A stretch of 11,860 bases of DNA from a virus (Duplodnaviria; Heunggongvirae; Uroviricota; Caudoviricetes). Where the stretch lies: IMG/VR virus record IMGVR_UViG_2703718842_000002, positions 1-11,860 of that record; one strand, given 5' to 3'. Within the stretch, counting starts at the first letter, position 1; each line of letters begins with the position of its first letter. The translations under genes and the position numbers were made by a program. Under the pieces are notes generated by a model. That model worked only from the letters and a program-made list of their open reading frames with translations, ran no database searches and was not told the origin of the DNA. This document shows, one piece after another, positions 1-11,860 of this stretch.

Positions 1-237
1 CGTGTTGAGGCCAACGCCCATAATGCGGGCTGTTGCCCGGCATCCAACGCCATTCATGGCCATATCAATGATTTTCTGGTGCGTACCGGGTTGAGAAGCG
101 GTGTAAGTGAACTGCAGTTGCCATGTTTTACGGCAGTGAGAGCAGAGATAGCGCTGATGTCCGGCGGTGCTTTTGCCGTTACGCACCACCCCGTCAGTAG
201 CTGAACAGGAGGGACAGCTGATAGAAACAGAAGCCAC
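1..237 (-). CDS. insA: IS1 InsA (transposition regulator / N-terminal part of the InsAB' transposase), 3'-partial in window
   Basis: Minus-strand frame beginning at the GTG whose reverse complement is 235-237 translates [79 protein letters not shown] with no stop before the window edge. This frame is missing from the supplied ORF track because it has no in-window stop. It contains the zinc-finger-like CxxC...CxxC pair of InsA. Confidence 0.85.
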
Positions 238-269
238 TGGAGCACCTCAAAAACACCATCATACACTAA

Positions 270-292
270 ATCAGTAAGTTGGCAGCATCACC
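270..292 (-). repeat. IS1 terminal inverted repeat (insA-proximal end)
   Basis: Window 270-292 atcagtaagttggcagcatcacc is the reverse complement of the ~23-bp IS1 terminal repeat GGTGATGCTGCCAACTTACTGAT. Confidence 0.8.
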
Positions 293-1484
293 GGATGCCT
301 GGCGAAATAACCAGGCAAATAAACCCAAAGCGCATAAAAAGACCGAAGCGGAAAAAACAGAAGATATTTATAAACGGCTGATTAAACAGCAAAAAGAACA
401 AATAGCACTGGCAGGGCAGAATACTGAACTGGCTAAGATGAAATATCAGGTCAGTCAGGGCGAATTATCAACCCTGTCAGAAGCGCAGAAAAAAACGCTT
501 TTGCAGAATGCAGCACTCATCGACCAGAAAAAGATTCGTGAGCAGCTTGCTGCGTATGAAAGCAGCCTGGCGGACAGTAATGCCAGTACCCGGGCGTCTA
601 ACGACGCGCAGTTACTGGGATATGGTGAAGGCTCACGGATGCGTGAACGACTCCAGGAAATGTGGAGTATCCGGCATGAGTTTGAGCAGAAAAATAACGA
701 GCTGCTGAGACAGTATCAGGCCGGAGAAATTGAAGAAGCCCTGTGGAAACAGGAGAAAGAACTGAATAAAAAATATCTGGAAGAGCGTCTCAGCGATCAG
801 CAGGATTATTATGCAAAGGCCGATGCTTTACGTAATAACTGGAATGCAGGACTCCAGGAGGGGCTGACCAACTGGGCAGACAGTGCCACCGATTATGCTT
901 CGCAGGCGGCAGATGCTGTCGTTTCCACTATGGACGGACTGGTATCAAATATTTCCGATGCACTGGCCGGAAATGTTGTGGACTGGAGAAACTGGGGGAG
1001 TTCAATTCTCCAGGAAGTTTCAAAAATTCTGATGAATGCGGCCATTGTTAACGGACTGAAGTCACTCTCCGGTGCCGGAGGGTGGCTTGGTACGGTCGGC
1101 GGATGGATTTCGGGGGCGGTGGCAAACGCAAAAGGTGGTGTTTACACATCAGCAAATCTGAGTGCTTACAGTAACACTATTGTGGATACACCGACGTATT
1201 TTGCTTTTGCGAAAGGTGCCGGGTTGATGGGCGAGGCCGGGCCTGAAGCAATCATGCCACTGACACGGGCAGCGGACGGCTCTCTTGGGGTCAGGGCCAT
1301 TGGAAATGTGAATGGTGGCGGTGGATTTGTTTATTCTCCCGTGTATCACATCAGCATTCAGAATCAAGGGAGCAATGGCGAGATAGATGCGCGCTCAGCC
1401 AGGGGACTGGTGGATCTGATCGACAGCAGGGTTGTGTCAATTATGCAGTCATCGCGTCGGGATGGAGGATTGTACAGTGCCTGA
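293..1484 (+). pseudogene. H: Tail tape-measure protein (lambda H-like), C-terminal ~397 codons, 5'-truncated by the IS1 insertion
   Basis: Track ORF 279-1484; its first 14 nt lie inside the IS1 inverted repeat and it uses a TTG directly after an in-frame TAA at 267-269, so the true N-terminus is absent. The translation has a tape-measure C-terminus (...TPTYFAFAKGAGLMGEAGPEAIMPLTRAADGSLGVRAIG...) and sits immediately upstream of M-L-K-I-J. Stop TGA at 1482-1484. Confidence 0.8.
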
Positions 1485-1818
1485 GCCTGAAGTTTTTAAC
1501 TGGATCCCCCGTGAGGGGATGGAGACGACACGAAAGCCATCAGTTATTACGGTAAAGTTTGGTGACGGATATGAACAGCGACGGGCTGGTGGCCTGAATG
1601 CGGATCTGAAAACGTTTAAACCGGTATTTCGTGTCACAGATGAATATTCCCGTGCCGCGCTGGACAGTTTTTTATCCCGTCATGCCGGGATTCGTGCTTT
1701 TTTGTGGCGTCCGCCAAAACACAACAGGACTGTCCGGGTTGTCTGCAGGGAGTGGAGCATTTCGGATAATGCCATGTATACCGATTTTAACTGTACCTTT
1801 GAAGAGGTCACTCACTGA
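1477..1818 (+). CDS. M: Minor tail protein M (lambda gpM-like)
   Basis: Translation ...EVFNWIPREGMETTRKPSVITVKFGDGYEQRRAGGLNADLKTF...AFLWRPP... aligns with lambda gpM (MKTFRWKVKPGMD...VRFGDGYSQRAPAGLNANLKTY...). Start chosen at GTG 1477, preceded by GGAGGA at 1464-1469 with 7-nt spacing. ATG 1462 and the track's TTG 1432 are in-frame alternatives. Overlaps the H stop and ends in an ATGA overlap with L. Confidence 0.85.
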   Translation: MPEPEVFNWIPREGMETTRKPSVITVKFGDGYEQRRAGGLNADLKTFKPVFRVTDEYSRAALDSFLSRHAGIRAFLWRPPKHNRTVRVVCREWSISDNAMYTDFNCTFEEVTH

Positions 1819-2516
1819 TGCAGGATATACAGCAGGAAACACTCAATGAGTGCACTAAAACGGAGCAATCCGCGCTGGTCGTGCTCTGGGAAATTGATCT
1901 GACAGAGGTCGGCGGAGAACGTTATTTTTTCTGTAATGAGCAGAACGAAAAAGGTGAGTCGGTCACCTGGCAGGGGCGACAGTATCAGGCGTACCCTATT
2001 CAGGGAAGCGGATTTGAGATGAACGGCAAAGGAGCCAGTGCAAGACCAACGCTGAAAGTCTCTAACCTGCACGGCATGGTCACCGGCATAGCGGAAGACC
2101 TGCAGAGTCTGGTCGGCGGAACGGTGGTCAGGCGTAAGGTTTACGCCCGTTTTCTGGATGCGGTGAACTTCGTCAACGGAAACAGTGACGCCGATCCGGA
2201 GCAGGAGGTAATCAGCCGCTGGCGCATTGAGCAGTGCAGCGAACTGAGCGCGGTCAGTGCCTCCTTTGTACTGTCCACGCCGACGGAAACGGACGGCGCT
2301 GTTTTTCCGGGCCGCATCATGCTGGCTAATACCTGCACCTGGACCTATCGCGGTGATGAGTGCGGTTATCACGGTCCGGCGGTCGCGGATGAATATGATC
2401 AGCCGACGTCCGATATCACGAAGGATAAATGCAGCAAATGCCTGAGTGGCTGTAAGTTTCGCAATAACGTCGGCAACTTTGGCGGCTTCCTTTCCATTAA
2501 CAAACTTTCGCAGTAA
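1818..2516 (+). CDS. L: Minor tail protein L (lambda gpL-like), tail-tip protein with a C-terminal cysteine cluster
   Basis: 232-aa ORF, the same length as lambda gpL, with a near-identical N-terminus (MQDIQQETLNECTKTEQSALVVLWEIDLTEVGGERYFFCNEQNEKGE...). C-terminal Cys residues (CTWTYRGDECGYHG...DKCSKCLSGCKF) match the known Fe-S-binding cluster of gpL. Its ATG overlaps the TGA of M. Confidence 0.92.
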   Translation: MQDIQQETLNECTKTEQSALVVLWEIDLTEVGGERYFFCNEQNEKGESVTWQGRQYQAYPIQGSGFEMNGKGASARPTLKVSNLHGMVTGIAEDLQSLVGGTVVRRKVYARFLDAVNFVNGNSDADPEQEVISRWRIEQCSELSAVSASFVLSTPTETDGAVFPGRIMLANTCTWTYRGDECGYHGPAVADEYDQPTSDITKDKCSKCLSGCKFRNNVGNFGGFLSINKLSQ

Positions 2517-2521
2517 ATCCC

Positions 2522-3265
2522 ATGACAGAGACAGAATCAGCGATTCTGGCGCACGCCCGGCGATGTGCGCCAGCGGAGTCGTGCGGCTTCGTGGTGAGAA
2601 CGCCGGAAGGGGAAAGATATTTTCCCTGCGTGAATATCTCCGGTGAGCCGGAGGCGTATTTCCGGATGGCTCCGGAGGACTGGCTGCGGGCAGAAATGCA
2701 GGGTGAGATTGTGGCGCTGGTCCACAGTCACCCCGGTGCTCTGCCCTGGCTGAGTGAGGCCGACCGGCGGCTGCAGGTGCAGAGTGATTTGCCGTGGTGG
2801 CTGGTCTGCCGGGGGGCGATTCACAAGTTCCGCTGTGTGCCACATCTTACCGGGCGGCGCTTTGAGCACGGGGTGACGGACTGTTACACGCTGTTCCGGG
2901 ATGCTTACCATCTGGCGGGAATTGAGATGCCTGATTTTCATCGTGAGGATGACTGGTGGCGTCACGGTCAGAATCTCTATCTGGATAATATGGAGGCAAC
3001 GGGGCTGTATCAGGTGCCGTTGTCAGCGGCGCAGCCGGGCGATGTGCTGCTGTGCTGTTTTGGTTCATCGGTGCCGAATCATGCCGCTATTTACTGCGGC
3101 GACGGCGAGCTGCTGCACCATATTCCTGAACAGCTGAGCAAACGAGAGAGGTATACCGACAAATGGCAGCGACGCACACACTCCCTCTGGCGTCACCGGG
3201 CATGGCACGCATCTGCCTTTACGGGGATTTGCAACGATTTGGCCGCCGCATCGACCTTCGTGTGA
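2522..3265 (+). CDS. K: Tail assembly protein K (lambda gpK-like); MPN/JAMM-type domain plus NlpC/P60-type cysteine peptidase domain
   Basis: 247-aa ORF beginning 6 nt after the L stop. JAMM-like motif E...HSHPGALPWLSEAD (H-x-H-x7-S-x2-D) lies at about 2722-2763. C-terminal half carries an NlpC/P60-like Cys/His pair (GVTDCYTLFRDAYH...NHAAIYCGDG). The true start could be an internal Met (e.g. M49). The 3' end overlaps I by 103 nt in another frame. Confidence 0.85.
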   Translation: MTETESAILAHARRCAPAESCGFVVRTPEGERYFPCVNISGEPEAYFRMAPEDWLRAEMQGEIVALVHSHPGALPWLSEADRRLQVQSDLPWWLVCRGAIHKFRCVPHLTGRRFEHGVTDCYTLFRDAYHLAGIEMPDFHREDDWWRHGQNLYLDNMEATGLYQVPLSAAQPGDVLLCCFGSSVPNHAAIYCGDGELLHHIPEQLSKRERYTDKWQRRTHSLWRHRAWHASAFTGICNDLAAASTFV

Positions 3266-3810
3266 AAACGGGGGCCGAAGCCATCCGGGCGCTGGCCATG
3301 CAGATCCCGGCGTTTCGTCAGAAACTGAATGAGGGCTGGTATCAGGTGCGCATTGCCGGGCGTGATGCAGGCGAAAACGAATTATCAGCCCGTCTTAATG
3401 AGCCGCTGAAAAATGGTGCCGTGATCCACATCGTTCCGCGTCTTGCGGGAGCAAAAAGTGGCGGTGTGTTTCAGGCGGTGCTGGGGGCGGCGCTGATTGC
3501 GGTGGCATGGTGGAACCCTGTGGGCTGGCTGGGTGCCGCGGCTGTATCGGGCATGTATGCGGCAGGGGCCAGTATGATCCTGGGCGGAGTGGCGCAGATG
3601 CTGGCACCGAAAGCCAGGACGCCCACGGCAGCAAGTACAGATAACGGCAAACAGAACACCTATTTCTCGTCACTGGATAACATGGTTGCCCAGGGCAATG
3701 TTCTGCCTGTTCTGTACGGGGAAATGCGCGTGGGGTCACGCGTGGTTTCTCAGGAGATCAGCACGGCAGACGAAGGGGACGGTGGTCAGGTTGTGGTGAT
3801 TGGTCGCTGA
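3163..3810 (+). CDS. I: Tail assembly protein I (lambda gpI-like)
   Basis: Translation MAATHTLPLASPGMARICLYGDLQRFGRRIDLRVKTGAEAIRALA...NGKQNTYFSSLDNMVAQGNVLPVLYGEMRVGSRVVSQEISTADEGDGGQVVVIGR closely matches lambda gpI at both termini. The Gly/Ala-rich hydrophobic middle is also typical. Confidence 0.88.
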   Translation: MAATHTLPLASPGMARICLYGDLQRFGRRIDLRVKTGAEAIRALAMQIPAFRQKLNEGWYQVRIAGRDAGENELSARLNEPLKNGAVIHIVPRLAGAKSGGVFQAVLGAALIAVAWWNPVGWLGAAAVSGMYAAGASMILGGVAQMLAPKARTPTAASTDNGKQNTYFSSLDNMVAQGNVLPVLYGEMRVGSRVVSQEISTADEGDGGQVVVIGR

Positions 3811-3828
3811 TGCAAAATGTTTTATGTG

Positions 3829-3856
3829 AAACCGCCTCCGGGCGGTTTTGTCGTTT
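3829..3856 (+). terminator. Stem-loop with a U-rich tail between I and J (terminator-like hairpin or RNA-stabilising structure)
   Basis: aaaccgcc (3829-3836), loop tccg, ggcggttt (3841-3848), then tgtcgttt. An 8-bp perfect stem. Because J lies downstream in the same operon this is more likely a partial terminator or processing/stability element than a full stop. Confidence 0.35.
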
Positions 3857-3870
3857 ATGGAGCGTGAGGA

Positions 3871-6800
3871 ATGGGTAAAGGCAGCAGTAAGGGGCATACC
3901 CCGCGCGAAGCAAAGGACAACCTGAAGTCCACGCAGTTGCTGAGTGTGATCGATGCCATCAGCGAAGGGCCGGTTGAAGGTCCGGTGGATGGATTAAAAA
4001 GCGTGCTGCTGAACAGTACACCGGTGCTGGACAGTGAGGGGAATACCAATATCTCCGGCGTCACGGTGGTGTTCCGGGCCGGTGAGCAGGAGCAGACACC
4101 GCCGGAGGGATTTGAATCCTCCGGCTCCGAGACGGTGCTGGGTACGGAAGTGAAATACGACACGCCGATCACCCGGACCATCACGTCGGCAAACATTGAC
4201 CGACTGCGCTTTACCTTCGGCGTGCAGGCACTGGTGGAAACCACCTCAAAGGGGGACAGGAATCCGTCGGAAGTCCGCCTGCTGGTTCAGATCCAGCGTA
4301 ATGGCGGCTGGGTGACGGAAAAAGACATCACCATTAAGGGCAAAACCACCTCGCAGTATCTGGCCTCGGTGGTGGTGGGTAACCTGCCGCCGCGCCCGTT
4401 CAATATCCGGATGCGCAGGATGACGCCGGACAGCACCACAGACCAGCTGCAGAACAAAACGCTCTGGTCGTCATACACCGAAATCATCGATGTGAAACAG
4501 GGCTACCCGAACACGGCACTGGTCGGCGTGCAGGTGGATTCGGAGCAGTTCGGCAGCCAGCAGGTGAGCCGTAATTATCATCTGCGCGGGCGCATTCTGC
4601 AGGTGCCGTCGAACTATAACCCGCAGACGCGGCAATACAGCGGTATCTGGGACGGAACGTTTAAACCGGCATACAGCAACAACATGGCCTGGTGTCTGTG
4701 GGATATGCTGACCCATCCGCGCTACGGCATGGGGAAACGTCTTGGTGCGGCGGATGTGGATAAATGGGCGCTGTATGTCATCGGCCAGTACTGCGACCAG
4801 TCAGTGCCGGACGGCTTTGGCGGCACGGAGCCGCGCATCACCTGTAATGCGTACCTGACCACACAGCGCAAGGCGTGGGATGTGCTCAGTGATTTCTGCT
4901 CGGCGATGCGCTGTATGCCGGTATGGAACGGGCAGACGCTGACGTTCGTGCAGGACCGACCATCAGATAAGGTGTGGACCTATAACCGCAGTAATGTGGT
5001 GATGCCGGATGATGGTGCGCCGTTCCGCTACAGCTTCAGCGCCCTGAAGGACCGCCATAATGCCGTTGAGGTGAACTGGATTGACCCGGACAACGGCTGG
5101 GAGACGGCGACAGAGCTTGTTGAAGATACGCAGGCCATTGCCCGTTACGGTCGTAATGTCACGAAGATGGATGCCTTTGGCTGTACCTGCCGGGGGCAGG
5201 CACACCGCGCCGGGCTGTGGCTGATTAAAACGGAGCTGCTGGAGACGCAGACCGTGGATTTCAGCGTGGGTGCCGAAGGGCTTCGCCATGTACCGGGCGA
5301 TGTCATTGAAATCTGTGATGATGACTATGCGGGGATCAGCACCGGCGGGCGCGTGCTGGCGGTGAACAGCCAGACCCGGACGCTGACGCTCGACCGTGAA
5401 ATCACGCTGCCATCCTCCGGCACCACGCTGATAAGCCTGGTTGACGGAAGTGGCAATCCGGTCAGCGTGGAGGTCCAGTCCGTCACCGACGGCGTGAAGG
5501 TGAAAGTGAGCCGGGTTCCTGACGGCGTTGCCGGATACAGCGTGTGGGGGCTGAAGCTGCCGACGCTGCGCCAGCGCCTGTTCCGCTGTGTGAGTATCCG
5601 TGAGAACGACGACGGCACGTATGCCATCACTGCCGTGCAGCATGTACCGGAGAAAGAAGCCATCGTGGATAACGGGGCGCACTTTGACGGTGACCAGAGC
5701 GGCACGGTGAATGGTGTCACGCCGCCAGCAGTGCAGCATCTGACCGCCGAAGTCACCGCAGACAGCGGGGAATATCAGGTGCTGGCGCGATGGGACACGC
5801 CGAAGGTGGTGAAGGGCGTGAGCTTTATGCTTCGCCTGACCGTGGCAGCGGATGACGGCAGTGAGCGGCTGGTCAGCACGGCCAGGACGACGGAAACCAC
5901 TTACCGCTTCACACAACTGGCTCTGGGGAACTACAGGCTGACAGTCCGGGCAGTAAATGCATGGGGACAGCAGGGCGATCCGGCGTCGGTATCGTTCCGG
6001 ATTGCCGCACCGGCAGCGCCGTCGCGGATTGAGCTGACGCCGGGCTATTTTCAGATAACCGCCACGCCGCATCTTGCCGTTTATGATCCGACGGTACAGT
6101 TTGAGTTCTGGTTCTCGGAAACGCGGATTACCGATATCAGGCAGGTTGAAACCACAGCCCGCTACCTTGGTGCGGGGCTGTACTGGATAGCCGCCAGTAT
6201 CAATATCAAACCGGGCCATGATTATTACTTTTATATCCGCAGTGTGAACACCGTTGGCAAATCGGCATTCGTGGAGGCTGTTGGTCAGCCGAGTGATGAC
6301 GCATCCGGCTATCTGGATTTTTTCAAAGGCGAGATAGGGAAAACCCATCTGGCTCAGGAGCTGTGGACGCAGATTGATAACGGTCAGCTTGCGCCTGACC
6401 TGGCTGAAATCAGGACGTCCATTACGGATGTCAGCAATGAAATCACACAGACCGTCAATAAGAAACTGGAAGACCAGAGTGCGGCAATTCAGCAGATACA
6501 GAAGGTTCAGGTTGATACAAATAATAACCTGAACAGCATGTGGGCTGTGAAGCTGCAGCAGATGCAGGACGGACGCCTTTATATCGCGGGTATTGGTGCC
6601 GGTATTGAGAACACCCCTGACGGCATGCAGAGTCAGGTGCTGCTGGCGGCGGACAGGATTGCGATGGTTAATCCTGCGAATGGCAACACAAAACCGATGT
6701 TTGTTGGTCAGGGCGATCAGATATTCATGAACGACGTGTTCCTGAAACGCCTGACGGCTCCCACCATTACCAGCGGTGGAAATCCACCGGCATTTTCCCT

Positions 6801-7353
6801 GACACCGGACGGGCGACTGACGGCGAAAAATGCGGATATCAGTGGCAGTGTGAATGCGAACGCCGGGACGCTCAACAATGTCACGATTAATGAGAACTGT
6901 CAGATTAAGGGGAAACTGTCAGCCAATCAGATTGAAGGCGATATTGTCAAAACGGTCAGCAAGTCTTTCCCCCGCACGAACAGTTATGCCAGTGGCACCA
7001 TCACGGTAAGAATCAGTGATGATCAGAAATTTGACCGGCAGGTCATGATACCGCCAGTGTTATTCCGCGGTGGTAAGCATGAGAATTTCAACAGTAATAA
7101 CCAACAGTCATACTGGTATTCAACCTGCCGGTTAAGAGTGACCCGCAATGGTCAGGAGATTTTTAATCAGTCCACGACGGATGCTCAGGGCGTATTTTCC
7201 TCCGTTATAGATATGCCTGCCGGACAGGGGACGCTGACACTGACATTCACCGTATCTTCATCAGGAGCGAATAACTGGACACCAACAACCAGTATCAGCG
7301 ATCTGCTGGTTGTGGTGATGAAAAAATCCACAGCAGGTATCAGTATCAGCTGA
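3871..7353 (+). CDS. J: Host-specificity / central tail-fibre (tail tip) protein J (lambda gpJ-like)
   Basis: 1160-aa ORF. N-terminal ~800 aa are near-identical to lambda J as I recall it ([34 protein letters not shown]...). GAGGA precedes the ATG. Stop TGA at 7351-7353. An internal patch and the C-terminal ~150 aa are diverged and lower in G+C (see findings). Confidence 0.95.
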
Positions 7354-7370
7354 ATTTTATAACCCAGAAC

Positions 7371-7397
7371 GGGCGTCAGAAATGACGCCTTTTTTAT
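7371..7397 (+). terminator. Rho-independent terminator-like hairpin downstream of J
   Basis: ggcgtca (7372-7378), loop gaaa, tgacgcc (7383-7389), followed immediately by tttttt (7390-7395). Confidence 0.6.
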
Positions 7398-7419
7398 TGC
7401 AGAAAAGCGAGAGGTAATT

Positions 7420-8019
7420 ATGCGTAAAGTTTGTGCAGCAATTTTGTCCGCAGCCATCTGTCTGGCCGTATCCGGTGCGCCTGCATGGGCGTCTGAACAT
7501 CAGTCCACGCTGAGCGCGGGGTATCTTCATGCCCGGACGAACGTTTCCGGCAGCGATGATCTGAACGGGATTAACGTGAAATACCGTTATGAGTTTACGG
7601 ACACGCTGGGAATGGTGACGTCATTCAGCTATGCAGGAGACAAGAATCGCCAGCTTACCCGTTACAGCGATACCCGCTGGCATGAAGATTCCGCGCGTAA
7701 CCGCTGGTTCAGCGTGATGGCGGGGCCGTCTGTGCGCGTGAATGAATGGTTCAGCGCGTATGCGATGGCGGGTGTGGCTTACAGCCGCGTGTCGACTTTC
7801 TCCGGGGATTATCTCCGCGTAACTGACAACAAGGGGAAAATGCACGATGTGCTGACCGGAAGTGATGACGGTCGCCACAGCAACACGTCTCTGGCGTGGG
7901 GGGCTGGCGTGCAGTTTAACCCGACCGAATCCGTGGCCATTGATATTGCTTATGAAGGCTCCGGCAGTGGCGACTGGCGCACTGACGGTTTCATCGTGGG
8001 GGTCGGTTATAAATTCTGA
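7420..8019 (+). CDS. lom: Lom-family outer-membrane beta-barrel protein (Ail/Lom/PagC/OmpX family), moron gene
   Basis: 199 aa. N-terminal signal peptide [24 protein letters not shown] followed by S. C-terminus ...[29 protein letters not shown] essentially matches lambda Lom. Conserved [14 protein letters not shown] and SAYAMAGVA strands are present. RBS GAGAGG lies 5-6 nt upstream of the ATG. Located between J and stf as in lambda. Confidence 0.9.
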
Positions 8020-8045
8020 TTAGCCAGGTAACACAGTGTTATGAC

Positions 8046-8073
8046 AGCCCGCCGGTTAAGGCGGGCTTTTTTG
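8046..8073 (+). terminator. Rho-independent terminator-like hairpin downstream of lom
   Basis: agcccgcc (8046-8053), loop ggttaa, ggcgggct (8060-8067), then ttttt (8068-8072). Confidence 0.6.
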
Positions 8074-8083
8074 TGGGGTGAAT

Positions 8084-11000
8084 ATGGCAGTAAAGATTTC
8101 AGGTGTACTGAAAGACGGCACAGGAAAACCGGTACAGAACTGCACAATCCAGCTGAAAGCAAAACGTAACAGCACCACGGTGGTGGCGAACACGGTGGCC
8201 TCAGAAAATCCGGATGAAGCCGGGCGTTACAGCATGGACGTTGAGTACGGTCAGTACAGCGTTATTCTGTTGGTGGAAGGCTTCCCGCCATCGCATGCCG
8301 GGACCATCACCGTGTATGAAGACTCACAACCGGGTACGCTGAATGATTTTCTCGGTGCCATGACGGAGGATGATGTCCGTCCGGAGGCACTGCGCCGTTT
8401 TGAACTGATGGTGGAAGAGGTGGCGCGTAACGCGTCCGCGGTGGCACAGAACACGGCAGCCGCGAAGAAGTCAGCCAGCGATGCCAGCACATCAGCCCGT
8501 GAGGCGGCAACCCATGCGACTGATGCTGCAGGCTCAGCACGCGCAGCCAGCACGTCAGCCGGACAGGCCGCGTCGTCGGCTCAGTCAGCATCTTCCAGCG
8601 CAGGAACAGCATCAACAAAGGCCACTGAAGCATCAAAAAGTGCTGCCGCCGCAGAGTCTTCAAAAAGCGCGGCAGCCACCAGTGCCGGTGCAGCGAAAAC
8701 GTCAGAAACGAATGCCGCAGCATCACAAAAATCTGCGGCCACTTCTGCATCCACCGCGACCACGAAAGCGTCAGAAGCTGCCACCTCAGCCCGGGATGCG
8801 TCGGCTTCAAAAGTGGCGGCAAAATCATCAGAAACGAGCGCAGCCTCGAGCGCCGGCATTGCAGCTTCCTCGGCAACGGCGGCAGGAAATTCCGCGAAGG
8901 CCGCAAAAACGTCTGAGACGAATGCGGATAACAGCGCACAGGCGGCAGCAGACTCACAAACTGCATCGGCAAACTCCGCGACAGCAGCCAAAAAATCAGA
9001 AACCAACGCGAAAAATAGTGAGGCAGCAGCAAAGGTCAGCGAAACCAACGCTAAAGCGTCAGAGAACAAGGCGAAAGAATATCTCGACAAGGTCGGGGGA
9101 CTCGTCAGCCCGATGACGCAATACGATTGGCCTGTTGTTACTGCTAGTGAGTCTCTTTACATCAAGATCGCGAAACTTTCCGATCCTGGAACCAGCAGAA
9201 GTCATGTAACGCTAATGGTTACTAACGCTGGTAACTACGGCTCCCCTTACGGAAACATTGACTTTATCGAGATCTCGGCGCGCGGTCTGCCTTCTTTGCT
9301 TAGTGCGGATAATGTTTCTCGTCATCTGAGTATACGCCGCTTAGGGTCAACCGGGCTGACCGATAACAACCAGATGCGTTACGGCCTGGTTAAAGGTGAC
9401 GGCTTTATTGAGGTTTGGGCATTCCAGGGTGCGTTTATTAACGACGCAAAGGTTGCGGTGCTGGCGCAGACGGCACGCACGGAATTATACATTCCAGACG
9501 GATTTGTTAAGCAAACCGCCGCGCCTTCTGGATATATTGAAGGCAACGTTGTAAGGATTTACGACCAGGTAAACAAGCCGACTAAAGCAGATTTGGGTCT
9601 TTGTAATGCTATGCTTACAGGCGCTTTCGGTCTTGGCGGTAGCGGGATAGCAACAAACGGCAAGATGAGCGATGTAGAGATCTTAAAAGCTCTGCGTGAC
9701 AAAGGTGGTCATTTCTGGCGCGGTGATAAGCCGACCGGAAGCACGGCGACCATTTATAGCCACGGTTCTGGTATATTCTCGCGGTGCGGCGATACGTGGT
9801 CAGCGATCAATATCGACTACTCAACCGCGAAGATTAAGATCTATGCCGGCAACGATGCCCGGTTTAACAACGGGACTTTTAGCGTCAATGAGCTATACGG
9901 CTCGGCAAACAAGCCGTCGAAATCGGATGTTGGACTTGGCAACGTAACGAACGATGCGCAGGTAAAAAAAACCGGCGATACAATGACCGGTGACTTGACA
10001 ATCAAAAAAGGTACACCGTCAGTCTTCCTGCGGGCAGACAGTGGAGTCACCGCTTTGCGGTTTTATACTGGCGATAACACAGAGCGCGGCATAATCTATG
10101 CTGGTCCTAACACTGATTCGCTTGGCGAAGTTCGCATCAGGGCAAAGACAGCAGGGGGGACATCAGGAGGGGATCTTGTTGTTCGTCACGACGGGAGGGT
10201 TGAAGTCCGTGATCTCACAGTAGCGTATAAAATTAAAAGCAGAACGATTGAGATTGCAAATACCGACACTGACTCATCGGCAACTACGCTCAGCATCTAT
10301 GGAGTACAGCACACGCCATTGGTTTTAACGCGTTCTGGTTCTTCTGAAAATGTGTCCATTGGGTTTAAGTTAGACAATGTGAACCCAAAGTATCTTGGAA
10401 TTGATACTAATGGGGATCTGGCTTTTGGTGAGAGTCCTGATCAGAAACAAAACAGCAAATTGATCACGCAAGCGAAACTCGACAAGGGATTAACGATTGG
10501 TGGTCAACTGGCTTTCAAAGGTACGACAGCGTTTTCAGCCGCTGCTACGTTCAGTGCCGGGATAGCAGGAGCCATCGAGCCGGAAGCCATTGACGGCCGG
10601 ACTATTGATTTAAACGACTTGATTATTGCTAATACAGAAGCTGGATCCGTTAAATACTATCAATGCAAAACTGTCGCAGGTGGTGCAAATATTACCAATA
10701 AGCCTGACGGCGTAAGCGGTAACTTTTTGGTTCGTGTAGAGTCGATTCGTAAGACTACGGGATCAGATTATGCGAACATGCAAACGCTGATTAACAGCGA
10801 CACAAAACGTATATACGTTCGCTTTGTTGTTAATGGAAACTGGACAGCGTGGAGTCAGGTTGTTGTTTCCGGATGGAATCAGGATGTAACCGTCAGGTCG
10901 TTAACCTCGACGACTCCATCAAAATTAGGTGGCGGGCGGATTGATGTGCTTGGAAGTACGTCAGATTATGGCAGCATGAATTGTACCGTTCGTGGTGTTG

Positions 11001-11860
11001 ATAGCACTGGAACCAATTCGGCGTGGTCGGTAGGCACATCAGAAAGCACAGGCAAAATGTTGTTCCTGAAAAACCACAGAAGCAGCGCTCAAGTGCTGTT
11101 AAATGGCGATGATGGAGCGGTTCAACTACTAAGTGGCACTGTTAACGGTGCTACAGCGCAGGCGCTAACCATCAACAAAGATGAGGTTAACTCAACTGCC
11201 GATTTAGTAATTAGAAAACAAACAGGGACTGGCAATCGTTTTGCTTTACTTAATTCAGGTAATTCAGAACTACCAGTTAGTATCAGGGTGTGGGGTTCCA
11301 GTACTCGACAAAACGTTTTTGAGGTTGGCACGTCTGCTGCGTATCTGTTTTATGCGCAAAAAACAACAGACGGGCAAAACCTTACTGTAAACGGAAGTGT
11401 TAACTGCACCACACTGAATCAGTCATCAGACCGCAGACTGAAAGAAAATATCGAGATTATCGATAACGCGACTGACGCAATCCGCAAAATTAATGGATAC
11501 ACATACACGCTCAAGGAGAATGGGGCACATTGCGCCGGGGTTATAGCCCAGGAAGTTGAAGAGGCCATCCCGGAGGCCGTTGGTTCATTCATCCATTACG
11601 GTGAAGAGTTGCAAGGTCCGACCGTTGACGGCAACGAGCTACGCGAAGAAACGCGCTATCTTAATGTTGACTACGCCGCCGTGACGGGCTTACTTGTTCA
11701 GTTCGCCCGTGAAACAGATGATCGCGTTACCGCGCTGGAAGAGGAAAACACAACGCTACGTCAAAATCTGGCAACAGCAGACACCCGGATCAGCACTCTG
11801 GAAAATCAGGTAAGCGAACTGGTTGCACTTGTCCGGCAGTTAACAGGAAGCGAACATTGA
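8084..11860 (+). CDS. stf: Side tail fibre protein: lambda Stf-like N-terminal anchor + Ala/Ser-rich repeat stalk + divergent distal fibre module + C-terminal intramolecular-chaperone (peptidase S74-type) domain
   Basis: Track ORF 8078-11860 begins at a GTG; ATG at 8084 gives MAVKISGVLKDGTGKPVQNCTIQLKAKRNSTTVVANTV...SMDVEYGQYSVIL..., which matches the lambda Stf N-terminus, and GGGG sits 6 nt upstream. Stop TGA at 11858-11860 is the last codon in the window. Confidence 0.9.
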   Translation: MAVKISGVLKDGTGKPVQNCTIQLKAKRNSTTVVANTVASENPDEAGRYSMDVEYGQYSVILLVEGFPPSHAGTITVYEDSQPGTLNDFLGAMTEDDVRPEALRRFELMVEEVARNASAVAQNTAAAKKSASDASTSAREAATHATDAAGSARAASTSAGQAASSAQSASSSAGTASTKATEASKSAAAAESSKSAAATSAGAAKTSETNAAASQKSAATSASTATTKASEAATSARDASASKVAAKSSETSAASSAGIAASSATAAGNSAKAAKTSETNADNSAQAAADSQTASANSATAAKKSETNAKNSEAAAKVSETNAKASENKAKEYLDKVGGLVSPMTQYDWPVVTASESLYIKIAKLSDPGTSRSHVTLMVTNAGNYGSPYGNIDFIEISARGLPSLLSADNVSRHLSIRRLGSTGLTDNNQMRYGLVKGDGFIEVWAFQGAFINDAKVAVLAQTARTELYIPDGFVKQTAAPSGYIEGNVVRIYDQVNKPTKADLGLCNAMLTGAFGLGGSGIATNGKMSDVEILKALRDKGGHFWRGDKPTGSTATIYSHGSGIFSRCGDTWSAINIDYSTAKIKIYAGNDARFNNGTFSVNELYGSANKPSKSDVGLGNVTNDAQVKKTGDTMTGDLTIKKGTPSVFLRADSGVTALRFYTGDNTERGIIYAGPNTDSLGEVRIRAKTAGGTSGGDLVVRHDGRVEVRDLTVAYKIKSRTIEIANTDTDSSATTLSIYGVQHTPLVLTRSGSSENVSIGFKLDNVNPKYLGIDTNGDLAFGESPDQKQNSKLITQAKLDKGLTIGGQLAFKGTTAFSAAATFSAGIAGAIEPEAIDGRTIDLNDLIIANTEAGSVKYYQCKTVAGGANITNKPDGVSGNFLVRVESIRKTTGSDYANMQTLINSDTKRIYVRFVVNGNWTAWSQVVVSGWNQDVTVRSLTSTTPSKLGGGRIDVLGSTSDYGSMNCTVRGVDSTGTNSAWSVGTSESTGKMLFLKNHRSSAQVLLNGDDGAVQLLSGTVNGATAQALTINKDEVNSTADLVIRKQTGTGNRFALLNSGNSELPVSIRVWGSSTRQNVFEVGTSAAYLFYAQKTTDGQNLTVNGSVNCTTLNQSSDRRLKENIEIIDNATDAIRKINGYTYTLKENGAHCAGVIAQEVEEAIPEAVGSFIHYGEELQGPTVDGNELREETRYLNVDYAAVTGLLVQFARETDDRVTALEEENTTLRQNLATADTRISTLENQVSELVALVRQLTGSEH
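8430..9090 (+). repeat. Low-complexity Ala/Ser/Thr-rich coding repeats within stf (degenerate K-x-SETNA-type units)
   Basis: Translation is dominated by A/S/T/K with recurring KTSETNAAASQKSAATSAS, KTSETNADNS, KKSETNAKNSE, KVSETNAKASENKAKE. G+C is very high (about 65% by hand count at 8461-8520). This bias also produces long spurious ORFs on both strands. Confidence 0.55.
11426..11857 (+). other. C-terminal intramolecular chaperone / auto-proteolysis domain of the tail fibre (endosialidase-chaperone type, peptidase S74-like)
   Basis: Domain starts at the motif S-D-R-R-L-K (Ser codon 11426-11428, Lys codon 11441-11443), matching the S-D-x-x-x-K Ser/Lys dyad signature. The following ~140 aa (ENIEIIDNATDAIRKINGYTYTLKENG...YLNVDYAAVTGLLVQFARE...LEEENTTLRQNLATADTRISTLENQVSELVALVRQL) end in a heptad-like coiled-coil segment. 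Confidence 0.7.

What the first reader, a model, noticed from the sequence alone, without database searches (positions are those of the whole stretch)
9090..9130. Abrupt G+C drop inside stf marks a probable recombination junction
Hand counts over single 60-nt lines give about 65% G+C at 8461-8520 (lambda-like stalk) but about 42% at 9121-9180, about 52% at 10261-10320 and about 38% at 11221-11280. The change coincides with the point where the protein stops resembling lambda Stf (around ...KEYLDKVGGLVSPMTQYDWPVV...). This is the signature of a horizontally acquired distal fibre cassette joined in frame to a resident anchor.
Basis: seen in the sequence. Interest (0 to 1): 0.5.

Follow-up and report, generated by a model that had tools for sequence, protein, structure and literature searches.

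The report
Mosaic lambda/T5-type side tail fibre gene
The G+C drop is real but only marks the end of an alanine/serine-rich coiled-coil stalk; the true joins in this ordinary mosaic prophage tail-fibre gene lie 35-170 bases upstream, inside a conserved repeat.

Summary
The change point is near 8990, not 9090-9130. It sits entirely at codon position 2 (0.64 to 0.46). G+C at position 3 is 0.51 versus 0.49 across the proposed junction. G+C predicted from the amino acids alone reproduces the drop, and lambda and Rac stf have the same high-G+C stalk. So the drop marks the end of a stalk that is 67% Ala/Ser/Thr, not foreign DNA.

A cassette exchange is nevertheless real. Homology to lambda, Rac and most E. 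coli prophages ends at 8925|8926. Homology to mEp460-type fibres ends at 9057|9058. Both points lie in copies of an AAKxSETNA repeat spaced in whole heptads. None of 60 evenly sampled relatives ends in 9090-9130. From 8926 to about 10957 the gene is collinear with the T5 L-shaped tail fibre pb1, with no break across 9090-9130. Lambda stf and T5 ltf share a 116-nt block (8810-8925) that ends exactly at the first junction. The gene ends in a self-cleaving S74 chaperone domain. Just past the window, related loci keep only the last ~146 nt of tfa. This is a known kind of fibre mosaicism, and near-identical genes are already in public genomes.

The parts
8084..11860 (+). stf, the side tail fibre gene. 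It is an intact ORF of 1258 aa starting at ATG 8084, with its stop codon at the window end.
   Evidence: ORF list and translation. It lies downstream of J (3871-7353) and lom (7420-8019). It is 99.6% identical to an E. coli Ecol_AZ147 prophage.
8084..8485 (+). Lambda-type N-terminal anchor domain (aa 1-134).
   Evidence: Pfam PF08400 phage_tail_N, E=7e-72, 240 bits against a cut-off of 26.6. GC3 is 0.62, like J and lom.
8417..9094 (+). Ala/Ser/Thr-rich proximal coiled-coil stalk (aa 112-337). This segment is the source of the high G+C.
   Evidence: Composition is 35% Ala, 21% Ser and 11% Thr. GC2 is 0.76-0.86. SETNA motifs sit at aa 207, 249, 277, 305, 319 and 326, spaced in multiples of 7. 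AlphaFold2 predicts one long helix for aa 262-337, at low to moderate confidence. The equivalent part of lambda Stf is described as a proximal coiled coil (PMC12617516).
8810..8925 (+). A 116-nt block shared by lambda-type stf and T5 ltf. It is the likely crossover arm.
   Evidence: Lambda stf nt 727-842 match T5 ltf nt 349-464 at 82.8%. In this block the window is about 90% identical to Rac and 80% to T5, leaving out a 21-nt insertion that lambda and Rac carry at the junction. Upstream of the block (8760-8809) T5 is only 36% identical.
8903..8925 (+). The AAKTSETNA repeat copy whose 3' end is junction J1 (8925|8926).
   Evidence: Repeat family D1/D2 has copies at 8462, 8693, 8819, 8903, 8987 and 9050, spaced in multiples of 21 nt. 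Identity to lambda and Rac collapses from 8926.
8926..9057 (+). Block between J1 and J2. It is shared with mEp460-type and PhiR70_1-type fibres, and with T5 at 76.5%.
   Evidence: It has a close match in 1932 of 5426 genomes.
9050..9072 (+). The repeat copy (AKASENKA) that contains junction J2 (9057|9058).
   Evidence: mEp460, PhiR70_1 and 118C_1 are 94-96% identical up to 9057 and unrelated after it. The repeat copy is listed.
9090..9130 (+). The reported interval. It encodes KVGGLVSPMTQYDW, the linker between the coiled coil and the first beta-rich domain. It contains an internal ATG at 9113.
   Evidence: The predicted helix ends at aa 337 and strands begin at aa 344. The interval is 100% identical in five relatives carrying the same S74-ended distal part, and the first mismatches appear at 9133. 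It is continuous in T5 pb1 and in P0052. No promoter, terminator or Rfam match was found. PGAP uses ATG 9113 as a CDS start in Ecol_AZ147 although the ORF there is intact.
8926..10957 (+). T5 pb1-like (L-shaped tail fibre) shaft (aa 282-958).
   Evidence: BLASTP gives 54% identity over 805 aligned positions, aa 177-958 against pb1 34-819. DNA is 68% identical over 1687 nt, 8816-10472. PHROG 24369, profile length 1396, matches at E=2e-206.
10958..11425 (+). Distal tip that precedes the chaperone domain, and the probable receptor-binding end. It is not pb1-like.
   Evidence: There is no alignment to pb1 beyond aa 819. The enclosing segment 10553-11425 has the lowest GC3 in the gene, 0.40. Identity among relatives varies block by block.
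11426..11857 (+). C-terminal S74 intramolecular chaperone domain (aa 1115-1258), with Ser1115 and Lys1120.
   Evidence: Pfam PF13884, 60.1 bits against a cut-off of 22. The SSDRRLK motif is at aa 1114-1120. It aligns to the chaperone domain of the S16 gp37 fibre, PDB 6f45. The Ser(i)/Lys(i+5) spacing equals T5 pb1 Ser1264/Lys1269 (PMC4690869).

Best explanation
stf is a mosaic side tail fibre gene. Its parts, in order, are:
- a lambda-type anchor (aa 1-134);
- an Ala/Ser-rich, heptad-periodic coiled-coil stalk (to aa 337);
- a T5 pb1-like shaft (aa 282 to about 958);
- a different distal tip;
- a C-terminal S74 intramolecular chaperone that should trimerise, help the tip fold and then cut itself off at Ser1115.

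The G+C drop has a simple cause. The stalk is 67% Ala/Ser/Thr. Those codons carry C or G at position 2, so G+C falls where the stalk ends.

The recombination joins are inside the stalk, at copies of the AAKxSETNA repeat. J1 is at 8925|8926, at the 3' edge of a 116-nt block shared by lambda-type stf and T5-type ltf. J2 is at 9057|9058. The right-hand join lies 1-38 nt beyond the window, where homology to the last ~146 nt of tfa resumes.

Shown here: the breakpoints, the shared block, the T5 collinearity, the tfa remnant and the origin of the G+C step.

Inferred: the exchange happened by homologous recombination between a left arm (anchor plus stalk) and a right arm (the 3' end of tfa). Such recombination has been demonstrated experimentally for lambda crossed with Rac and Qin. 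A crossover between repeat copies keeps both the reading frame and the heptad register. Also inferred: the self-chaperoning end made tfa dispensable.
For: G+C step
- Change points for raw G+C and GC2 are both at 8990. GC3 is flat across 9091/9131.
- Expected G+C conditioned on the amino acids tracks the drop.
- The stalks of lambda, Rac and mEp460 show the same GC2 of 0.76-0.81 and GC3 of 0.44-0.50.

Breakpoints
- Pairwise BLAST and ungapped projections place them at 8925|8926 and 9057|9058.
- In the sample of 60 records, 44 end at J1, 9 at J2 and none in 9090-9130.
- The number of genomes with a match falls from 3847 to 1932 to 417 across the two junctions.

Repeats
- Copies are spaced in multiples of 21 nt, and both junctions lie in copies.

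T5 relationship
-. The lambda/T5 shared block ends at 8925.

Third anchor
- P0052 has no PF08400 anchor and sits in a different prophage with an 1813-aa J. It is 69% identical to aa 306-725, continuous across the interval.

tfa scar
-.

S74 domain
-.

Recombination mechanism
- Lambda recombines with Rac and Qin within the stf and tfa homology regions (De Paepe et al. 2014, PMC3945230).
Against: - T5 is only 68-80% identical at the DNA level. It is a relative of the donor, not the donor, so the direction and age of the exchange are inferred.
- Past J1, lambda and Rac can still be aligned weakly for about 60 nt after a 21-nt (one heptad) indel. J1 is therefore a sharp loss of high identity rather than an absolute end of similarity.
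- Two breakpoints falling in repeat copies is only modestly beyond chance. I made only a rough mental estimate, not a calculation with any tool: copies cover roughly a sixth of the stalk, which would give p of order 0.02.
- The structure model has low confidence (mean pLDDT 52.8).
- Autocleavage and independence from Tfa were not tested.
- The endpoint sample is 60 records, not the full set of 8720 places.
Confidence: 0.82

Rival explanations
1. The in-frame join between the resident anchor and an acquired cassette lies at 9090-9130 and is revealed by a drop in G+C caused by a foreign base composition.
For: - The raw G+C counts are correct.
- The Ala/Ser-rich resemblance to lambda Stf fades near aa 336-348.
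- Among relatives with the same distal part, mismatches begin at 9133 after 230 identical bases.
Against: - GC3 is unchanged across the interval, p=0.89.
- The drop is predicted from the amino acids alone and also occurs in lambda and Rac stf.
- None of 60 sampled relatives ends there.
- T5 pb1 and P0052 are continuous across it.
- The differences at 9133-9202 sit in residues that also vary in P0052, P0115, P0072 and P0095.
Confidence: 0.04
2. There was no exchange. The distal part diverged in place from a lambda-like ancestor, and the changes in identity reflect uneven selective constraint.
For: The stalk is low-complexity and repetitive, so alignments there decay easily. Weak similarity to lambda persists for about 60 nt past J1.
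Against: - The distal 2 kb is collinear with the fibre of the unrelated virulent phage T5 and has no detectable similarity to the lambda or Rac distal parts.
- The same shaft occurs on three unrelated anchors.
- A truncated tfa lies downstream.
- Each segment is found in a very different number of genomes.
Confidence: 0.02
3. The exchange was made by site-specific recombination (a Pin/Gin/Cin-type invertase acting in fibre genes) or by illegitimate joining at a hot spot next to J1, not by homologous recombination.
For: - De Paepe et al. attribute the old fibre exchanges among unrelated phages to invertases associated with stf.
- Rac and Qin carry pinR and pinQ next to tfa.
- Two unrelated rearrangement joints, J::stf in EC21Z-078 and an IS3-family element::stf in BL21 Qin, fall at TA|ACAGCG (8929/8930), within 5 nt of J1.
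Against: - No recombinase gene is present in the window or in the 9 kb downstream in Ecol_AZ147.
- By eye, I saw no resemblance to a gix/hix-type site at J1. The comparison rested on my recollection of those sites and was not made with a tool.
- J1 sits at the edge of a 116-nt block of 80-90% identity, which is what a homologous crossover would leave.
Confidence: 0.1

Closest known systems
Lambda Stf and Rac StfR side tail fibres (PF08400 anchor plus proximal coiled coil, assembled with Tfa)
   Same: - Same position after J and lom.
- The anchor and stalk are 88-95% identical at the DNA level up to nt 8925.
- The stalk has the same Ala/Ser-rich, GC2-rich composition.
   Different: - The distal 2.9 kb is unrelated.
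- The gene ends in an S74 chaperone domain rather than depending on Tfa.
- Only a 3' remnant of tfa follows the gene in related loci.
[quoted passage not shown]
   Same: - Collinear shaft: aa 177-958 align to pb1 34-819 at 54% identity. This includes SETNA.NSAQAA...SENKAKEYLD..LVSP.TQYDWPV across J1, J2 and 9090-9130.
- C-terminal chaperone domain with a Ser/Lys pair at the same spacing.
   Different: - The pb1 N-terminal attachment region is absent.
- The pb1 bullet-shaped receptor-binding domain (aa 970-1263) has no counterpart here.
- DNA identity is only 68-80%.
Stf of phages Ayreon, vB_EcoS-640R1 and mEp460, and the prophage alleles in Ecol_AZ147 and PSJ-07
   Same: - Ayreon (85%), PSJ-07 (94%) and Ecol_AZ147 (99.6%) are full-length relatives with the same architecture.
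- 640R1 is 90.6% identical as far as its record extends, about window 11387.
- mEp460 shares the sequence up to J2 and again from 10892.
   Different: Internal blocks differ by 20-50% at about 9600-10550 and 10550-11300, in different combinations in each relative. The 'cassette' is therefore itself a mosaic.
Recombination at conserved motifs in fibre genes (the stf and tfa homology arms used by lambda with Rac and Qin, De Paepe 2014; the His-box model for T-even fibres, cited from memory)
   Same: Short conserved segments flank variable receptor-binding parts, and the breakpoints fall in the conserved segments.
   Different: Here the conserved segment is a heptad-periodic AAKxSETNA coiled-coil repeat shared by three anchor types. 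I found no paper describing this particular motif as a crossover site, but my literature search was limited.

Membership tests
Lambda-type side tail fibre (Stf) | N-terminal PF08400 (phage_tail_N) anchor domain | tested here: met
   E=7.2e-72, 240 bits against a cut-off of 26.6, aa 1-134.
Lambda-type side tail fibre (Stf) | Gene located after J and lom in a lambdoid tail module | tested here: met
   ORFs at 3871-7353 and 7420-8019 precede it. The 99.9%-identical locus is annotated with L, C40 peptidase, tail assembly protein, gpJ and Lom.
Lambda-type side tail fibre (Stf) | Proximal Ala/Ser-rich coiled coil after the anchor | tested here: met
   Heptad-spaced repeats, predicted helix for aa 262-337, and the lambda Stf domain description in PMC12617516.
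Lambda-type side tail fibre (Stf) | Distal part homologous to lambda or Rac Stf, with an intact tfa chaperone gene downstream | tested here: not met
   No homology to lambda or Rac past 8925. Only a 135-nt tfa remnant follows the gene in Ecol_AZ147 and four other loci, outside the window.
T5 pb1 / L-shaped tail fibre | Collinear homology to the pb1 shaft | tested here: met
   54% identity, aa 177-958 against pb1 34-819. DNA 68% over 1687 nt.
T5 pb1 / L-shaped tail fibre | pb1 N-terminal attachment region | tested here: not met
   pb1 aa 1-33 are unaligned. The N-terminus here is PF08400.
T5 pb1 / L-shaped tail fibre | pb1 bullet-shaped receptor-binding domain (aa 970-1263) | tested here: not met
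   No significant alignment beyond pb1 aa 819. The PDB sequence search found only the chaperone domain of S16 gp37.
Peptidase S74 intramolecular chaperone domain | PF13884 match above the gathering score | tested here: met
   60.1 bits against a cut-off of 22, aa 1115-1166.
Peptidase S74 intramolecular chaperone domain | Conserved Ser and Lys five residues apart at the start of the domain | tested here: met
   S1115-D-R-R-L-K1120. T5 has Ser1264 and Lys1269 (PMC4690869). The SSDRR(L/I)K motif aligns to 6f45.
Peptidase S74 intramolecular chaperone domain | Autoproteolytic release after trimer folding | not testable with these tools
   Needs expression of the wild type and an S1115A mutant.
Compositionally foreign (horizontally acquired) DNA segment starting at 9090-9130 | A step in synonymous-site composition (GC3 or codon usage) at the boundary | tested here: not met
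   GC3 is 0.51 versus 0.49, p=0.89. The residual after conditioning on the amino acids is about 0.
Invertase-switched fibre segment (Pin/Gin/Cin type) | Adjacent serine recombinase gene | tested here: not met
   None among the ORFs of the window. None is annotated in the 9 kb downstream in Ecol_AZ147. Rac and Qin, by contrast, carry pinR and pinQ.

The most novel reading that the evidence does not exclude
The AAKxSETNA heptad coiled coil may act as a general in-frame, in-register recombination adaptor. It would let at least three unrelated virion-attachment domains (the lambda Stf N-domain, the T5 pb1 N-terminus and the P0052-type N-terminus) swap T5-like shafts and tips, including between temperate lambdoid phages and virulent T5-like phages. 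There may also be a preferred break site next to J1 (TA|ACAGCG, 8929/8930), where two unrelated rearrangement joints also map.
Probability: 0.25. Interest if true: 0.4.

Novelty: already known. Interest (0 to 1): 0.18.

Why it matters
Practically, raw G+C steps inside fibre genes should not be read as recombination junctions. Ala/Ser-rich coiled coils raise G+C through codon position 2 whatever their origin, so GC3 or homology breakpoints are the right test.

Biologically, the locus is a clear but unsurprising example of tail-fibre modularity. A lambda anchor carries a T5-like, self-chaperoning distal fibre, joined at a conserved coiled-coil repeat. The mapped joins (8925|8926 and 9057|9058) are natural, heptad-preserving fusion points. 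They could guide the design of chimeric lambda side fibres for host-range engineering.

Tried and rejected
- Structure. AlphaFold2 on aa 261-740 with a 16-sequence alignment gave mean pLDDT 52.8. I used only its helix-to-strand boundary and ran no fold search, because a model this poor gives meaningless matches.
- Annotation libraries. NCBIfam gave nothing useful, only a sub-threshold SMC hit on the coiled coil. The PDB sequence search found only the chaperone domain, plus spurious antibody hits.
- Regulatory and RNA features. No Rfam family was found in 7900-11860. No promoter-like site was found in 7900-9500. The only credible terminator there is the one after lom at 8046-8067.
- A small conversion patch starting at 9133. 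I considered that the identity change at 9133 among relatives with the same distal part marks such a patch. The 11-13 differences in 9133-9202 fall on residues that also vary in distant homologues. I read this as a variable loop, but a short patch is not excluded.
- An invertase crossover site at J1. I saw no resemblance to a gix/hix site beyond a chance GGATAA hexamer (comparison by eye from memory), and no recombinase gene is nearby.
- Literature. The engineered lambda-P2 STF chimera preprint gave no fusion-point detail that I could use.
Full report
**What the window holds.** It is the distal tail module of a lambdoid E. coli prophage. In order it contains the end of the tape-measure gene, genes for L, a C40 peptidase and a tail assembly protein, then J (3871-7353), lom (7420-8019), a terminator (8046-8067) and stf (8084-11860, 1258 aa). 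Positions 288-11860 are 99.86% identical to a prophage of E. coli Ecol_AZ147, whose annotation supplies these names. In Stf, Pfam finds the lambda-type anchor PF08400 at aa 1-134 and the S74 'chaperone of endosialidase' domain at aa 1115-1166.

**The observation.**
- The four 60-nt G+C values are exact.
- stf has a significant compositional step. The best change point is nt 8990, with G+C 0.584 to the left and 0.482 to the right, and 0 of 300 permutations reached it.
- The step is a decline over about 8900-9100, not an abrupt drop at 9090-9130.
- It is confined to codon position 2. The GC2 change point is also at 8990 (0.639 to 0.455).
- For 100 codons on each side of the proposed junction, GC3 is 0.51 versus 0.49 (p=0.89) and GC1 is 0.51 versus 0.53.
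- I computed the G+C expected from the amino-acid sequence alone, using the window's own codon usage. That expectation falls from 0.62 to 0.50 over the same stretch, and the residual stays within -0.025 to +0.005.

**The cause of the G+C drop.** Residues 112-337 are 35% Ala, 21% Ser and 11% Thr. Their codons have C or G at position 2. As a control, the same stalk in lambda, Rac and mEp460 stf has G+C of 0.60-0.61, GC2 of 0.76-0.81 and GC3 of 0.44-0.50, whatever distal part follows. The drop is therefore a property of the protein domain and not evidence of foreign DNA. A separate, weaker synonymous shift lies much further downstream. The GC3 change point is near 10097 (0.53 to 0.43, p=0.016), with a minimum of 0.40 in 10553-11425.

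**Where homology actually breaks.**
- Against lambda and Rac stfR, high identity (88% and 95%) ends at 8925. An ungapped projection shows the collapse starts exactly at 8926.
- Against mEp460, PhiR70_1 and prophage 118C_1, identity of 94-96% ends at 9057 and collapses from 9058.
- In a sample of 60 records taken evenly down the ranking of 4797 matching E. coli records, 44 alignments end at 8919-8925, 9 at 9055-9057, 6 span everything, 1 ends at 8566 and none ends in 9090-9130.

The number of complete genomes with a close match falls stepwise across the two junctions:

| Window segment | Genomes with a match (of 5426) |
|---|---|
| 8650-8925 | 3847 |
| 8929-9057 | 1932 |
| 9058-9400 | 417 |

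- At the protein level, real identity to lambda and Rac ends at aa 281 (AAKTSETNA).

**The junctions sit in a repeat.**
- The stalk contains a 23-26-nt repeat encoding AAKxSETNA. Copies lie at 8462, 8693, 8819, 8903, 8987 and 9050, with a further copy near 9029. All are spaced in multiples of 21 nt.
- The SETNA motifs lie at aa 207, 249, 277, 305, 319 and 326, which are multiples of seven apart. This is what a coiled coil predicts.
- The Ur-lambda cryo-EM paper describes the equivalent lambda segment as the proximal coiled-coil domain (PMC12617516).
- AlphaFold2 predicts one helix for aa 262-337 followed by strands from aa 344, at low confidence.
- J1 is the 3' end of copy 8903-8925, and J2 lies inside copy 9050-9072. 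A crossover between copies keeps both the reading frame and the heptad register.

**What the distal part is.**
- A sensitive DNA search of phage genomes showed that T5 ltf (pb1) matches 8929-9288 at 75.6%.
- A local alignment extends this to 8816-10472, at 68% over 1687 nt.
- At the protein level, aa 177-958 align to pb1 34-819 at 54%. The alignment runs through SETNA(D/G)NSAQAA...SENKAKEYLD..LVSP.TQYDWPV, so it is continuous across J1, J2 and the reported interval.
- Sliding identity to T5 is 72-85% over 8820-9090 and 65-67% over 9090-9180. That is a modest decline at a domain boundary, not a loss of homology.
- Lambda stf nt 727-842 match T5 ltf nt 349-464 at 82.8%. This 116-nt block is window 8810-8925. 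Left of it T5 is unrelated (36% identity), and right of it lambda is unrelated.
- A third anchor type uses the same shaft. P0052 (736 aa) has no PF08400 domain and sits in a prophage with an 1813-aa J and no lom. It is 69% identical to aa 306-725, skips aa 726-1101 and resumes at the S74 domain.

**The right-hand end.** The window stops at the stf stop codon. In Ecol_AZ147, PSJ-07, EC-14-2-9, EC21Z-078 and 118C_1, a tfa remnant of about 135 nt annotated 'missing N-terminus' follows directly. Homology to the last ~146 nt of lambda tfa resumes 38 nt after the stop codon. The incoming segment therefore replaced the distal part of stf and most of tfa. This fits a fibre that no longer needs Tfa. 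The S74 domain carries S1115-DRRL-K1120, the same Ser(i)/Lys(i+5) arrangement as T5 pb1 Ser1264/Lys1269. In T5 the domain folds the tip and then cleaves itself off. It also aligns to the chaperone domain of S16 gp37.

**The 'cassette' is not one unit.** Full-length or nearly full-length relatives (PSJ-07, EC-14-2-9, Ayreon and 640R1) switch between 95-100% and 50-80% identity at about 9600, 9950, 10550, 10900, 11300 and 11600, in different combinations. Segments 10553-11425 and 11426-11860 occur in 793 and 813 genomes respectively, more than the 417 that carry 9058-9400. Some homologues join the first part of the shaft to a collar-domain (PF07484) end instead of an S74 end (P0092-P0095).

**What lies in 9090-9130 itself.** It encodes KVGGLVSPMTQYDW, the linker between the coiled coil and the first beta-rich domain. 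It is 100% identical in all five relatives examined that carry the same S74-ended distal part, as part of a 230-nt invariant stretch (8903-9132). It has no promoter, terminator or Rfam match.

**Mechanism.**
- Shown here: the breakpoints, the shared block, the three anchors, the tfa scar and the origin of the G+C step.
- Inferred: exchange by homologous recombination between a left arm (anchor plus stalk, ending in the 8810-8925 block) and a right arm (the 3' end of tfa). De Paepe et al. showed experimentally that lambda recombines with Rac and Qin in exactly these stf and tfa homology regions (PMC3945230).
- Alternatives kept at low weight are invertase-driven exchange and a hot spot at 8929/8930. 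Two unrelated rearrangement joints also fall at that position.

**Verdict.** Mosaic tail fibres joined at conserved segments are well known, and near-identical genes are already in public genomes. Novelty is therefore low.

Noticed in passing
window 8926-8930; L004 about 2990-3001; L012 about 3990-4001: Two unrelated rearrangement joints fall within 5 nt of J1, both reading TA|ACAGCG. In EC21Z-078, J (window about 4503) is fused directly to stf. In the BL21(DE3) Qin prophage, the end of an IS3-family element abuts the stf remnant at the same position. This may be coincidence or a break hot spot.
   Followed up: partly
window 6100-7353 (the 3' third of J): J is 94.6% identical to lambda J up to about 6367 and then diverges (77% for 6537-6911, nothing after that). 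GC3 falls from 0.73 to 0.58 at about 6100. This looks like a genuine combined homology and synonymous-composition break in the receptor-binding end of J, which is the kind of signal the finding claimed for stf.
   Followed up: partly
window 8050-8600: Most of the 16 differences between the window and its closest relative, Ecol_AZ147, cluster in the stf anchor and the first part of the stalk. From about 8600 to 11860 only two differences were noted (nt 8859 and the codon for aa 594). This suggests a short conversion tract in the conserved arm.
   Followed up: partly
window 1-287: The first 287 nt, inside the tape-measure gene, have no homology to Ecol_AZ147, although the rest of the window is 99.86% identical. 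This is another mosaic boundary.
   Followed up: no
window 9061-9113; L001 10062-10114: RefSeq/PGAP splits the intact 1258-aa stf of Ecol_AZ147 into a 'pseudo, missing C-terminus' N-terminal part ending at window 9061 and a separate 'pyocin knob domain-containing S74 family peptidase' CDS starting at the internal ATG 9113. Translation shows no internal stop, so this is an annotation artefact. It recurs in several genomes.
   Followed up: yes
window 8307-9032 (-), 8581-9090 (-), 8481-9116 (+): Long antisense and alternative-frame ORFs (169-241 aa) cover only the Ala/Ser-rich stalk and stop where it ends. They are a by-product of GCN/TCN-rich coding sequence, like lambda's annotated orf206b inside stf.
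   Followed up: partly
L001 12910-13044 and 13916-14089 (downstream of the window): Two tfa 3' remnants lie in direct orientation about 1 kb apart. They flank a SAM-dependent methyltransferase gene and a DinI remnant. This suggests repeated replacement events at this arm.
   Followed up: no
window 10553-11425: The region just before the chaperone domain, the probable receptor-binding tip, has the lowest GC3 in the gene (0.40). Its residual after conditioning on the amino acids reaches -0.11. It is the most variable block among relatives.
   Followed up: partly
H168, NZ_AP045828.1 2745112-2745453: In one genome the 9058-9400 segment lies under a CDS annotated 'terminase gpA endonuclease subunit'. 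This is probably a mis-annotation or a rearranged prophage.
   Followed up: no
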